A stretch of DNA of 64,000 nucleotides. Origin: an uncultured Alphaproteobacteria bacterium (GTDB taxonomy: Bacteria > Pseudomonadota > Alphaproteobacteria > RF32 > CAG-239). Below, piece by piece: positions 58,901-61,900 of this stretch. The stretch's first letter is position 1. The number at the start of each line of letters is the position of its first letter. Made by a program: the position numbers. Where the stretch lies: NCBI GenBank assembly GCA_944393665.1, contig CALYAX010000004.1, forward strand, positions 13,479-77,478, in the 5' to 3' direction.

Positions 58901-61900
58901 CCAGATCGGCGAAGTTTATAACGGCAAAGTAACCAACATCACCGATTACGGCGCATTTGTCGAACTCGAAGACGGCATTGAAGGTTTGGTTCACGTTTCG
59001 GAAATGAGCTGGACCCGCAAAAACGTTCACCCGGGCAAGATTGTTTCGACCTCTCAGGAAGTTGAAGTCAAGGTTCTGGAAGTTGATGCCGACAAACGCC
59101 GCATCTCCCTGGGCATTAAACAGTGCACCCCGAATCCCTGGGCTGCTTATGTTGAAGAGCACCCGGTCGGATCGGTTATCGAAGGCAAGATCAAGAACAT
59201 TACCGAGTTCGGCCTGTTTGTCGGTCTGTCTGATGAAATTGACGGCATGATTCACCTGTCTGACATCTCCTGGGACAAAGCCGGTGAAGAAGCTGTTAAA
59301 GACTACACCAAAGGCCAGGATATTCAGGCAAAAATCATCGATGTTGATGTTGAAAAAGAACGCATCAGCCTCGGTATCAAACAGCTGTCTGAAGATACGG
59401 TTGCCGCTGCCCTGGACGGATTCAAAAAAGGCGATGTGGTTAAAGCCACCGTTACCGCTATTGATGACAAAGGTGTCAGCGCTGATGTAAACGGCGCCGC
59501 CGCTTATATCAAAAAAGCCGACCTGTCCCGCGACAAAGCCGGCCAGAATCCGGAAAACTTCAAAGAAGGCGATGAGCTTGAAGCCAAAATCACCTCCGTT
59601 GACAAGAAAACCGGAAAACTGAACCTGTCGGTTAAGGCATTGGAAATTGAAGAAGAGAAAAAGGCTCTGGAAGAATACTCCTCCAGCACCGGCAACTCTG
59701 CTTTCGCCGATGCTCTCGGTGCCGCTTTGAAAAAGAACGCTTAATTTTAGCGTTTTGCCGAAAAGAAAACCTCCCGTAAACCGGGAGGTTTTTTTGTCTT
59801 AAATTCCCTCCGGCCAGACCGGGGAATCTTTTTTCTTGCATAATGTTTGGGCGGCTGGTATAGTTTTGTCCATAAAGACAAATTATTAAATATACGAATT
59901 ATGAAAGAAAGAATAATTACCTGCCAGGTTATTAAGATTATGACCTCAGGTGACAAAGTTTTGGTGAGATACCGCGAAACTGCCGATGATCCGGTGAGAG
60001 AAATATCGTTTGACTATTCTTTAGCGGGCGCCAGGCTGGAGGAATTAAAACGCAAATACCGTTTTAAACTTTCCCGCCCCACCATGATCCTGACCTATGT
60101 TCACGGAGAATTAATCCGGGTAAAATTTGACCAGGCGATTGAGTTCAACAGCAAAATGACGCAGATCCGAATCTGGGAAAATGAAGCTGCCGCCCTGCTG
60201 GCTGATTTCAGGGTTAAGTTTGACGCTTTTATTGAGCGGCAGGAGCCGGAAGCAGAGGAAAAGCTTTTGGTTAAAATCTACGGGTTGCCGCTGTTGCTCC
60301 GGTATTGGCCGCTGGCATTGCTGCATGTGTATAAAAACGATACGAATGTCCTGAAGAGGATAACCGTTTTGGTAAAACTGTTAAAAATCACAGACAGGTT
60401 ATATCCGAACCACGGCTTTACACCAAATAAATTCTCCAACCCTTTTCAGATGAATCCCCTTGAGGGGGTATCTTATGAATGGGACGAGGTTTTGCTTTAC
60501 AAAAGTCAGGACGCTCCGATAACCCATGGGATCTGGGAATGTTTTTCTGATGACAGTATCGTGCGGAAACAACTGGTTGAGGCCGGATTAACACTCATAG
60601 AAGGGGAAGATCCGCTGATAATCAATTATCTTGATTATCTTACCCGCCGGTTTAAATACGCTTATTTCTATGATGTCAAAGCCATGGAAAATAATCTTCA
60701 GATGGGCGGCGGCGGACTTTTATCAGCAGAGTTCCGCCTGCAAAAAGACGAGGACGAGCTGAAAAGCAATATCAGCAAAATGTACCTGTTCCGCCAGCAT
60801 TCTGACTTGTTAATAGAAAGGCGGCTTTCTCTTGAAGAGATAAACGGCCTGATAAGGATTATTAAATTGTAACTTAAACCTCCCGCAATCCGGGAGGTTT
60901 TTTGTCTTCCGGCCAATATCTTTTTTTCTTGCATAAAGGCCGGGCGGCTGGTATAAGTTTGTCCATAAAAGCAAAACTCCGGTTCTTAAAAAGGACCGGA
61001 GTTTTTTATTTTTTGCGGGGAAAGCGCTGCCGCAGCCTCCTGTTTCTGCGCGGCGGAAGCAGCCCCCTGTTTCTGCGCGGCGGAAGCAGCTCCCTATTTC
61101 TGCGCGGCGGAAGCAGCCTCCTATTTCTGCGCGGCGGAAACAGCTCCCTATTTCTGCGCGGCGGAATTAGAATAAGTGTAATGATAAAGCAAGTCGCGCT
61201 CATTGATGGTTTGGGCATCAACGGCTCCCTCGGGAACTGCCCAAAGAATTGAAAGCGGCCAGGTTATCAGGTTCAAAAAACCATAAGTATAATGGTTGCT
61301 GTCGCCGGCATTGCCGGAAGCCAGATAAAAGTTGCCGCCTCCGGGCAGCAGGTTGAGCGCGCCGGCGGCCGCCGGGCTGGCCGGGCGTTCCCACTGTGTC
61401 TGCGGGGTGTCAACGGTGATGCCCCGTCCCCTCAGGCTTTGCAGCCGGTCGCGTTCGTAAGCGTTCAAATGGGTGCAGGCGGATAAGCTTAAAAGCAAAA
61501 TGATGGTTGAAATAAAGTTTTTCATTATAGTCCTTCAGTTATTTAAAAAAACCAAAGGCCACTTTAATAAATAAAGTGACCGGGACGTTATCGACCATCC
61601 ACAAAGTATGGTATCTCTGCCTTTAAAACCGAAGTTTCTGAACATAACAAAGATCATCCCGGTCATGGCAACCGGGATATATTGACTGTGCAGGAAAATA
61701 TTAACCTGACAATCTGTCGACGCTATATCCGTGCGCCGTTTGTGGCGGGAATCGATAAATTCCCCGGCAGTTTCCTGCCGTAACTGCACGCCCCATGGCA
61801 TGCAGCTGCTTTCAGGTTAGCCGAATCTGCGCAGATTTGCAAGCACTATTTTTGCCGTGCCGGAGCGGCGGCGGGGGTGGGTGCCGTGCGGCGGGGCCGT

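What the first reader, a model, noticed from the sequence alone, without database searches (positions are those of the whole stretch)
61545..61842. Copy Y shows switch-like, mutually exclusive pairings coupled to the terminator
Seen in sequence: the invariant TGCCGGGGA can close hairpin 2 (CGGCA...TGCCG) or pair with the invariant 3' CCCGG(C/T). The second pairing extends the closing stem and takes the first bases (GGC/GGT) of the terminator's left arm, and the same overlap exists in copy X. Y also carries GAAA and TTCG tetraloops and a long irregular closing stem (TTATCGA/TCGATAA, CCACAAA/TTTGTGG); its G-U wobbles occur on the sense strand. Established: aptamer-terminator competition is how transcriptional riboswitches and attenuators work. 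Inference: a ligand or protein controls read-through into the lipoprotein gene.
Basis: partly seen in the sequence, partly recalled or inferred. Interest (0 to 1): 0.85.

Follow-up and report, generated by a model that had tools for sequence, protein, structure and literature searches.

The report
Two-state terminator-switch leader RNA
The stretch encodes a ~265-base folded leader RNA in front of a small lipoprotein gene that can adopt two competing shapes, one forming and one blocking a transcription stop signal; it belongs to a large, unpublished RNA family distantly related to the catalogued "sRNA-Xcc1", and what flips it is unknown.

Summary
The RNA is strongly structured (z = -8.5) and non-coding. 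It lies between a conserved promoter-like site and an intrinsic terminator, 20 nt before the ribosome site of a 125-aa lipoprotein.

That toggle is hairpin 2 against a register-shifted CCGGG/CCCGG pairing. It costs about 13 kcal/mol, still leaves a 7-bp terminator, and is not conserved in distant relatives.

A stronger switch exists. In fold 1, long-range stems A (TTATCGA/TCGATAA) and B (CCACAAA/TTTGTGG) plus GGGA/UCCC close the RNA and leave the terminator free. In fold 2, the 3' half forms a three-way junction. Its 11-bp closing helix (TGACCGGGATG/CGTCCCGGTCA) takes the first 5 bases of the terminator arm.

Both folds covary across about 29 distinct leaders found upstream of homologues of this lipoprotein. 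In the nascent RNA the two folds differ by only 3.5 kcal/mol.

The three-way junction links by iterative covariance-model search to leaders that score 28-40 bits against Rfam sRNA-Xcc1 (cut-off 53). Y itself does not match that Rfam model.

Copy X shares only its ends with Y and has no recognisable junction. The effector is unknown and there is no expression data.

The parts
61814..61842 (-). Promoter-like site: TTGCAA (61842-61837), 17-nt spacer, TAACCT (61819-61814). The likely transcription start is near 61807-61810.
   Evidence: Read from the sequence. The same -35/N17/TAnnnT arrangement sits 5-8 nt before the first hairpin in X and in the related leaders. The E. coli-type scan does not call it, because the -10 matches only 3 of 6.
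61545..61813 (-). Y leader RNA, about 265 nt, running from the promoter to the end of the terminator T-run.
   Evidence: Fold z = -8.5. The sense strand folds much better than the antisense. The 88-aa ORF across it is broken in 90-93% identical orthologues.
61782..61808 (-). Hairpin 1 (CAGCTGCATGCC-ATGG-GGCGTGCAGTT).
   Evidence: It is conserved in the Y lineage and in X.
61765..61780 (-). Hairpin 2 (CGGCAG-GAAA-CTGCCG).
   Evidence: L009 carries a compensated version, GACAG/CTGTC. The hairpin is absent in L032.
61747..61764 (-). H3 region, GGGAAT[TTATCG]ATTCCC. In fold 2 it is a local hairpin. In fold 1 its 5' GGGA (61764-61761) forms P1 with the distal TCCC, and its loop and 3' arm supply strand A5 (TTATCGA, 61758-61752).
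   Evidence: The H3 arms covary across the family: GGG/CCC, GAGG/CCTC, GGAGA/TCTCC, GGAAC/GTTCC, GGAC/GTCC.
61739..61745 (-). Strand B5 (CCACAAA). In fold 1 it pairs with the loop of hairpin b.
61685..61738 (-). Two internal hairpins, present in both folds: CGGCGC-ACGGATATA-GCGTCG and ACAGATTGTCAGG...CCTGCACAGT.
61655..61679 (-). Decoy hairpin seg1:seg2 (TATCCCGGTTG-CCA-TGACCGGGATG). Its 3' arm, seg2 (61665-61655), is the 5' strand of the antiterminator helix P1'.
61613..61654 (-). Hairpin a of the three-way junction. It has internal loops and an inner GAAAC-TTCG-GTTTT hairpin.
61594..61612 (-). Hairpin b (ACCAT[ACTTTGTGG]ATGGT). Its loop contains strand B3 (TTTGTGG, 61605-61599), so hairpin b and stem B exclude each other.
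61588..61594 (-). Strand A3 (TCGATAA). It is the single-stranded joiner J of the junction in fold 2 and is paired with A5 in fold 1.
61577..61587 (-). seg3 (CGTCCCGGTCA), the 3' strand of P1'. Its TCCC (61585-61582) pairs with GGGA in fold 1. Its GGTCA (61581-61577) is the start of the terminator's 5' arm.
   Evidence: An unbiased search for the best complementary pair found the 11-bp seg2:seg3 helix. Covariation. Covariance-model hit at 61664-61578, 23 bits, E = 3e-4.
61545..61581 (-). Intrinsic terminator: GGTCACTTTA-TTTAT-TAAAGTGGCC followed by TTTGGTTTTTTT.
61148..61536 (-). Ribosome site GAAGGA (61536-61531) and the 125-aa lipoprotein gene (ATG at 61525, stop at 61148).
   Evidence: The family has 185 homologues and no Pfam or NCBIfam domain.
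50046..50345 (+). Copy X. Promoter TTGCAA (50046-50051), 17-nt spacer, TAATCT (50069-50074). RNA about 50075-50345 with a 13-bp terminator, followed by a 62-aa lipoprotein-like ORF (50367-50555).
   Evidence: X shares only its ends with Y. No three-way junction was found. An orthologue exists only in the closest relative.

Best explanation
Y is the 5' leader of the lipoprotein mRNA and works as a two-state transcription attenuator.

State 1 is the computed ground state.
- The 5' strands GGGA, A5 (UUAUCGA) and B5 (CCACAAA) pair over about 150 nt with UCCC, A3 (UCGAUAA) and B3 (UUUGUGG).
- An internal hairpin (seg1:seg2) holds seg2.
- The terminator hairpin forms directly after the closing helix.
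- RNA polymerase stops, which yields a ~265-nt RNA.

State 2 refolds the 3' half (61665-61577) into a three-way junction of the sRNA-Xcc1 type.
- The junction has helix P1' (UGACCGGGAUG with CGUCCCGGUCA), hairpin a, hairpin b and a 6-nt joiner.
- P1' consumes GGUCA, the first five bases of the terminator's 5' arm.
- Only an AU-rich 5-bp remnant of the terminator is left, so polymerase reads through into the lipoprotein gene.
- The freed 5' strand then folds into the local hairpin H3.

What is shown: both sets of helices exist, they exclude each other, and each covaries across the family.

What is inferred: the switch controls termination, the default is 'off', and an unknown effector that stabilises the junction or masks the 5' strands turns the gene on. 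The effector could be a small molecule, a protein or an RNA.
For: Structure
- Each homologue folds on its own into the same architecture.
- Each isolated 3' domain folds into the same three-way junction.

Fold 2 covariation
- On a structure-based alignment of 29 distinct leaders, 97.8% of cells pair against 66% in shuffles. 24 of 30 pairs show double changes, and 0 of 500 shuffles reach this.
- On a covariance-model alignment of 24 leaders, 96.2% of cells pair, 18 of 23 pairs show double changes, and 0 of 500 shuffles reach this.
- P1' variants include GACCGGGAU/GUCCCGGUC, GGCUGGGGU/GCCCCGGCC, GACUGGGAG/CUCCCAGUC, GGCCGGGGAG/CUCCCCGGCC, GACUGGAAG/CUUCCAGUC and GGCCGGGGUA/UACCCCGGCC.

Fold 1 covariation
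- Stems A and B have a different sequence in nearly every leader but stay complementary.
- Stem B: self complementarity has a median of 9.5 bp, against 6.0 for swapped partners (95th percentile 8).
- Stem A: self complementarity has a median of 8.0 bp, against 5.5 for swapped partners.
- Between Y and the 93% identical L028, 14 of 19 differences lie in the A and B strands and are compensatory. Public metagenome contigs show the same clustering of variants.

Mutual exclusivity
- B3 is the loop of hairpin b.
- A3 is the joiner, and in other members also part of hairpin b's 3' arm.
- seg3 overlaps the terminator's 5' arm by 2-5 nt in every leader type.

Energetics
- Nascent RNA: fold 1 is -98.3 and fold 2 is -94.8 kcal/mol.
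- Full length: -114.4 with the terminator against -102.3.

Cis linkage
- A leader plus terminator precedes this lipoprotein family in about 22 of 24 distinct upstream types. These types sit in several unrelated genomic contexts. The leader is always in the same orientation, and only 20-35 nt separate the terminator from the start codon.

Family link
- A model built only from other leader types reaches the Y orthologue L009 (32.6 bits, E = 3e-5). The next round reaches Y itself (23 bits, E = 3e-4, the best hit in 15 kb with filters off).
Against: - There is no transcript evidence. The only runs holding the RNA are of unknown kind, and a metatranscriptome query returned nothing.
- The start site and termination efficiency are unmeasured, and the -10 box is weak by E. 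coli rules.
- No effector is known, and thermodynamics alone strongly favours the terminated state.
- In a close relative (L026) a Y-like RNA, with its promoter and intact compensated stems, persists without the lipoprotein gene or a clean terminator. That fits an RNA with a function of its own.
- The two structural alignments were fitted to the structures, so the percentage paired is inflated.
- The leaders were retrieved through the lipoprotein, so the reverse association (RNA to gene class) was not tested.
- The recombinant-looking allele L029/L030 has mismatched A and B strands.
Confidence: 0.6

Rival explanations
1. Y is a stand-alone small RNA of the sRNA-Xcc1 / phage C4 kind. It has its own promoter and an efficient terminator and acts in trans by base pairing through the hairpin-b loop and the joiner. 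The 5' strands A5 and B5 are an intramolecular mask or decoy for these two recognition sites. The lipoprotein gene is merely adjacent, or is expressed by leakage.
For: - sRNA-Xcc1 accumulates as an independent 88-nt RNA (PMC2996969) and is treated as trans-acting in the literature (PMC12189769).
- The ground state of Y is the terminated RNA.
- L026 keeps the RNA without the gene.
- The two masked segments are hypervariable between strains while the rest is nearly invariant. From my own knowledge of phage P1/P7 c4, specificity determinants of antisense systems behave this way.
Against: - The RNA is linked almost universally, in the same orientation and tightly spaced, to one lipoprotein family across unrelated genomic contexts.
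- There is no room for a separate promoter between the terminator and the ribosome site.
- The terminator arm overlaps the junction helix in every member. A constitutive terminator would not need this.
- No second A5/B5-like target exists in the 64-kb window. The rest of the genome could not be searched.
Confidence: 0.2
2. TGCCGGGGA either closes hairpin 2 or pairs with the 3' CCCGG(C/T). The second pairing takes GG of the terminator arm and thereby controls termination.
For: The complementarity exists in Y (CCGGG/CCCGG) and in X (GCCGGGG/UCCCGGC, 7 bp). It is also possible in L009 and L026a.
Against: - Enforcing it costs 13.4 kcal/mol at full length and 6.6 in the nascent RNA.
- Its ensemble probability is below 0.001.
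- A 7-bp terminator still forms.
- There is no covariation, because the bases are simply conserved among close relatives.
- The extension is mismatched in L032 and L070, and hairpin 2 is absent in L032.
Confidence: 0.04
3. There is a single static, pseudoknotted structure with no switching. In this reading the three-way junction and stems A and B form together as one tertiary fold. That fold stabilises the RNA or serves as a processing or binding site (for example, RNase P-type processing as for c4 RNA). Termination is constitutive.
For: All helices covary. Covariation shows that each helix forms at some time, not that the helices alternate.
Against: - Stem B pairs 7-13 nt of a 6-16-nt hairpin loop, with 0-2 unpaired nt left on each side.
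- In most members stem A overlaps the 3' arm of hairpin b by up to 4 nt. Both features are direct sequence overlap or sterically impossible.
- P1' and the terminator share 2-5 nt.
Confidence: 0.08

Closest known systems
sRNA-Xcc1 (Rfam RF02221). An 88-nt RNA of Xanthomonas campestris, found in integron cassettes, prophages and genomic islands.
   Same: - The three-way junction has the same layout: a 9-11-bp GC-rich closing helix (consensus GGCCGGGG/CCCCGGCC), a first hairpin with A-rich internal loops, a second short hairpin (GCCGU/ACGGU in many leaders), and a 5-6-nt U-rich joiner followed by a T-run.
- Related leaders score 35.6-39.7 bits and L032 scores 28.3 bits on the Rfam model, over its full length.
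- In Xanthomonas cassettes the element also lies upstream of a gene, symE (bioRxiv 10.1101/2025.06.18.660453).
   Different: - Y gives no Rfam hit at E <= 10. All relatives score below the 53-bit cut-off.
- Y carries an extra ~150-nt 5' domain whose strands pair with the junction's loop and joiner.
- The junction helix is coupled to an intrinsic terminator.
- The locus is chromosomal, in an uncultured gut alphaproteobacterium, in front of a lipoprotein.
- Hairpin a has different internal-loop sequences (GUUAUGUUCA / UAAAGG).
Transcriptional riboswitches and other terminator/antiterminator attenuators.
   Same: A conserved structured domain has a closing helix that shares bases with an intrinsic terminator. 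The two mutually exclusive folds are of similar energy, and the element sits in the 5' leader of the regulated gene.
   Different: No ligand or binding factor is known. A third element, the anti-antiterminator strands A5 and B5, is hypervariable rather than conserved. There are duplicated G and C tracts (GGGA / seg2, and UCCC / seg1 / seg3).
Phage P1/P7 c4 antisense RNA (Rfam RF01695), recalled from my own knowledge.
   Same: A small structured RNA in a leader has two single-stranded recognition segments that are complementary to two sites upstream in the same transcript. These segments differ between close relatives, with compensating changes.
   Different: No downstream target pair at the ribosome site of the regulated gene was found. 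There is no Rfam C4 hit. The output here appears to be termination rather than translational masking.

Membership tests
sRNA-Xcc1 (RF02221) | A match to the Rfam covariance model at or above the gathering score of 53 bits. | tested here: not met
   Y has no hit even at E <= 10 in a 601-nt search, and the whole window has none at gathering threshold. Related leaders score 28.3-39.7 bits.
sRNA-Xcc1 (RF02221) | Three-way junction: a closing helix of about 9-10 bp, a hairpin with an internal loop, a second hairpin, and a 5-6-nt joiner. | tested here: met
   Y at 61665-61577 folds this way in isolation. It aligns over the full length of the family model R3. Covariation is shown.
sRNA-Xcc1 (RF02221) | A chain of detectable homology to sequences that resemble the family. 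| tested here: met
   - R1, built only from leaders that score 35-40 bits on RF02221, finds the intermediates.
- R2, which contains no Y-lineage sequence, finds L009 at E = 3e-5.
- R3 finds Y at E = 3e-4 and L027 at E = 2e-4.
- E-values from these models are rough.
sRNA-Xcc1 (RF02221) | Accumulates as an independent RNA of about 88 nt, carried by an integron, prophage or island. | tested here: not met
   Here the junction is embedded in a ~265-nt leader between housekeeping genes (rpsA, thymidine phosphorylase, dnaK). RNA size could not be measured.
Transcriptional riboswitch | A conserved structured sensor domain supported by covariation. | tested here: met
Transcriptional riboswitch | An expression platform in which the sensor helix and an intrinsic terminator exclude each other. 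| tested here: met
   seg3 shares GGTCA with the terminator arm, and the overlap is 2-5 nt in all leader types.
Transcriptional riboswitch | Direct binding of a small-molecule ligand that shifts the fold. | not testable with these tools
   No biochemical data. The regulated protein has no known function that would suggest a ligand. The AlphaFold model was too poor to use.
Transcriptional riboswitch | Regulated termination or read-through in vivo or in vitro. | not testable with these tools
   No usable RNA runs.
Phage c4-type antisense RNA (RF01695) | Two recognition segments complementary to an upstream site pair and to a downstream site pair at the target ribosome site. | tested here: not met
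   The upstream pair (A5 and B5) is present. No downstream or second copy was found in the window. There is no Rfam hit.

The most novel reading that the evidence does not exclude
The Xcc1-type three-way junction may be an orphan sensor domain, either a riboswitch aptamer or the site of a widespread RNA-binding regulator. In uncultured gut Alphaproteobacteria it would be wired to a terminator through a self-complementary 5' 'lock'. The two lock helices (A and B) would act as fast-evolving, copy-specific addresses, kept different between paralogues and strains so that each switch pairs only with itself. If so, the catalogued 'trans-acting sRNA' sRNA-Xcc1 of integrons and prophages would be the sensor half of a general cis-regulatory device.
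Probability: 0.25. Interest if true: 0.8.

Novelty: new variant of a known kind. Interest (0 to 1): 0.62.

Why it matters
It gives a concrete, testable mechanism for an RNA family that the public databases do not hold in this form. The family controls a conserved envelope lipoprotein of unknown function in uncultured gut bacteria.

It also suggests what the poorly understood sRNA-Xcc1 fold does. Finding the effector would add either a new riboswitch class or a new RNA-binding regulator.

The compensated hypervariability of two helices inside an otherwise invariant RNA is an unusual evolutionary pattern that needs explaining.

Tried and rejected
- **Rfam.** I searched the whole window at gathering threshold and searched locally at E <= 10. 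There was no family for Y or X.
- **Exact-pattern scan of genome contigs.** The pattern was GCAGTTACGGCA..TGCCGGGGA. It gave only chance hits inside coding regions.
- **RNA evidence.** The only runs holding the RNA are of unknown kind with 2x contigs, and a metatranscriptome filter returned none.
- **Protein-coding reading.** The 88-aa ORF across Y is interrupted in orthologues that are 90-93% identical.
- **Lipoprotein function.** There is no Pfam or NCBIfam match. The AlphaFold2 model has mean pLDDT 54.6, so I ran no fold search.
- **RNAalifold on a plain MAFFT alignment.** It missed the long-range stems because the hypervariable strands misalign.
- **N-padded alignment for stems A and B.** MAFFT re-gapped it. 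I therefore tested fold 1 with my own self-versus-swapped-partner script instead of the count of structure pairs.
- **Copy X.** The family model does not hit it, and no seg2-like partner for its 3' end was found.
- **Weak model hit at 26893-26952.** This is a bidirectional terminator between convergent genes.
- **A second A5/B5 target in the window.** None was found.
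Full report
**Where and what**

The feature lies on the minus strand. It starts with a promoter-like TTGCAA-N17-TAACCT (61842-61814). About 265 nt of RNA follow (61813-61545). The RNA ends in the hairpin GGTCACTTTA/TAAAGTGGCC plus TTTGGTTTTTTT, which the terminator scan calls.

Twenty bases further on are GAAGGA and the ATG (61525) of a 125-aa lipoprotein.

The RNA folds at -113 kcal/mol against -73 +/- 4.7 for shuffles, z = -8.5. 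The opposite strand folds 32 kcal/mol worse.

An 88-aa ORF runs through the RNA, but it is interrupted after 33 codons in orthologues that are 90-93% identical. The element is therefore RNA, not protein-coding.

Rfam has no family for it, either at gathering score or at E <= 10.

Every sequence element listed is present. The proposed toggle is not a real competitor.

In the minimum-energy fold, hairpin 2 (nt 34-49), P1 (G50-A53 with U229-C232) and the terminator (nt 233-257) are flush neighbours and coexist. The alternative pairing, CCGGG (47-51) with CCCGG (230-234), fares poorly:
- It shifts the register by one base.
- It destroys half of a GC-rich GNRA hairpin.
- It costs 13.4 kcal/mol at full length and 6.6 kcal/mol in the nascent RNA.
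- Its ensemble probability is below 0.001.
- A 7-bp terminator still forms.

TGCCGGGGA is also not invariant. L009 has CTGTCGGGAC with a compensated hairpin 2. In the distant homologues L032 and L070 the extension is mismatched, and L032 lacks hairpin 2 altogether.

**Relatives**

I therefore went through the neighbouring proteins.

The lipoprotein belongs to a well-conserved family with no annotated domain. I found 185 homologues. The family shares a core motif, GITVD...WERPASPAAAGALNLLPGFGNFYLASGN...LNLLTWPISILWGIPEAAIDA.

I collected the DNA upstream of homologues from contig look-ups and from 80 metagenome loci. After dereplication there were 24 upstream types from the metagenome loci, plus the contig loci. 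About 22 of the 24 types carry a structured leader that ends in a terminator 20-35 nt before the start codon. The genes sit in several unrelated contexts: MgtE, RecG, Fic/Der and rpsA neighbourhoods. Two AT-rich lineages lack the leader.

**Fold 1**

Orthologues of Y keep the two long-range stems while changing their sequence.

| Leader | Stem A | Stem B |
|---|---|---|
| Y | UUAUCGA/UCGAUAA | CCACAAA/UUUGUGG |
| L027 | UACAAG/CUUGUA | CUACAAGC/GCUUGUAG |
| L028 | UAGUAG/CUACUA | CCGAAAGC/GCUUUCGG |
| L009 | UUAAGAA/UUCUUAA | AUAGUAAG/CUUACUAU |
| L026a | UAUUGAAUGAC/GUCAUUCAAUA | not listed |
| L032 | UUUCAAA/UUUGAAA | CACAAAG/CUUUGUG |

Across 29 distinct leaders the layout is constant. It runs: small hairpin H3, strand A5 in its loop, 3-6 nt, strand B5, then the interior, then B3, 1-4 nt, and A3.

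A partner-swap test supports both stems.

| Stem | Own partner, median | Swapped partner, median | Swapped partner, 95th percentile |
|---|---|---|---|
| B | 9.5 bp | 6.0 bp | 8 bp |
| A | 8.0 bp | 5.5 bp | 7.5 bp |

**Fold 2**

It is UGACCGGGAUG (61665-61655) with CGUCCCGGUCA (61587-61577). Its last five bases, GGUCA, are the first five of the terminator's 5' arm.

Homologous helices exist in every leader type, each with a different sequence.

The region this helix encloses folds on its own, in all members, into a three-way junction. The junction consists of the closing helix P1', hairpin a with internal loops, hairpin b, and a 4-8-nt joiner. Pair counts are as follows:
- Structure-based alignment: 97.8% of cells paired against 66% in shuffles. 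24 of 30 pairs have changes on both sides. 0 of 500 shuffles reach this. Slid-register controls give 28-51%.
- Independent covariance-model alignment of 24 leaders: 96.2% paired, 18 of 23 pairs doubly changed, 0 of 500.

Both alignments are fitted to the structure, so the paired percentages are upper bounds. The variety of pair types at fixed positions is the real evidence.

**The two folds exclude each other**

- B3 is the loop of hairpin b. It is almost fully paired in stem B, with 0-2 nt to spare.
- A3 is the joiner. In most members it also includes up to four bases of hairpin b's 3' arm.
- GGGA pairs either with the local UCCC (hairpin H3, fold 2) or with the distal UCCC inside seg3 (P1, fold 1).
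- seg2 pairs either with seg1 (a local decoy hairpin, 61679-61655) or with seg3.
- seg3 overlaps the terminator arm by 2-5 nt in every type.

For the nascent Y transcript, fold 1 is -98.3 and fold 2 is -94.8 kcal/mol. Once the terminator's 3' arm exists, the terminated form wins at -114.4 against -102.3.

The most economical reading is a default-off attenuator in which the three-way junction is the antiterminator. The 5' strands A5, B5 and GGGA act as an anti-antiterminator.

**Relation to known RNAs**

The commonest leader type scores 35.6-39.7 bits, over the full length, on Rfam sRNA-Xcc1 (RF02221, cut-off 53). L032, a distant Y-type, scores 28.3 bits.

I linked Y to these leaders by iterative model building:
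- R1, built only from that commonest type, found the intermediate types at the expected positions.
- R2, which contained no Y-lineage sequence, found the Y orthologue L009 (32.6 bits, E = 3e-5), L026a and L032.
- R3, which contained no window sequence, found Y at 61664-61578. The score was 23.0 bits, E = 3e-4, the best hit in 15 kb with filters off. It also found L027 at 27.1 bits.

So Y is a divergent member of an Xcc1-like superfamily, but it is not a member of RF02221 by Rfam's own criterion.

The literature treats sRNA-Xcc1 as an 88-nt trans-acting sRNA of mobile elements (PMC2996969, PMC12189769). One preprint notes that it lies just upstream of symE in integron cassettes (10.1101/2025.06.18.660453). 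I found no paper that describes the extended two-state leader.

Notes from other agents of this scan describe the same family in other genomes. I reached the Xcc1 link before reading them, and I treat them as agreement, not as evidence.

**Copy X**

X (50075-50345, +) shares several elements with Y: the promoter, hairpins 1 and 2, GGGGAU...GAUUCC.GCCA, and the 3' GGAUGG...AUCCCGGCC plus a 13-bp terminator. Its interior is different.

The family model does not hit X, and no internal partner for its 3' end exists.

An orthologue of X is found only in the closest relative (EngB 94% identical) and is absent at 80% and 78%. Nothing can therefore be said from covariation.

**Open points**

There are no expression data and no effector.

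L026 keeps a Y-like RNA, with compensated stems, but it has no lipoprotein gene and no clean terminator. A partial second copy follows it. This is the best argument for a function of the RNA itself (rival 1).

The RNA is more conserved than the gene it precedes, and the pairing of leader with gene is mosaic.

| Comparison | RNA identity | Lipoprotein identity |
|---|---|---|
| Y vs L028 | 93% | 63% |
| Y vs L009 | 69% | 81% |

Between near-identical leaders, almost all differences fall in stems A and B. No explanation tested here accounts for that rate of compensated change.

Noticed in passing
window 61589-61607 and 61732-61759; L027, L028: Strain-level variation is concentrated in the two strands of stems A and B and is compensatory, while the rest of the RNA is almost invariant. 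14 of the 19 differences between Y and L028 fall there. Two alleles coexist in chicken-gut and bovine-gut runs. This rate of paired change is unexplained.
   Followed up: partly
L029:897-1165 and L030 (same sequence, from two assemblies): This allele has the 5' strands of stems A and B of the L028 type but the 3' strands of the L027 type, so the closing stems are largely mismatched. It is either a natural recombinant or an assembly chimera across the 125-nt conserved interior.
   Followed up: partly
L026:9637-10581 (minus strand; same contig as L019): In the closest relative, the Y locus holds the promoter and a full Y-like RNA with its own compensated stems. It has no lipoprotein gene and no clean terminator. 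A second, partial 3'-half copy follows.
   Followed up: partly
window 61151-61813 compared with L028 and L009: Leader and gene are mosaic. The L028 leader is 93% identical to Y but its lipoprotein is only 63% identical. The L009 leader is 69% identical but its lipoprotein is 81% identical. This suggests recombination between the leader and gene modules.
   Followed up: no
window 61032-61166: A 27-nt tandem repeat (consensus GCAGCCCCCTATTTCTGCGCGGCGGAA, 5 copies, 92% matches) lies directly downstream of the lipoprotein gene and overlaps its last codons.
   Followed up: no
window 50367-50555 (+) and 50512-51084 (-): The 62-aa lipoprotein-like ORF after copy X overlaps the 3' end of the convergent DUF1349 gene by about 44 nt. 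In L019 it is 50 aa with a different C-terminus, so it may be a remnant.
   Followed up: no
L010-L012, L048, L049: Two AT-rich lineages carry the same lipoprotein family with no recognisable leader or terminator upstream. These are natural 'leaderless' controls.
   Followed up: no
window 2944, 36873, 55911: TGCCGGGGA occurs five times in the window against 0.8 expected by chance. I did not examine the three copies outside X and Y.
   Followed up: no
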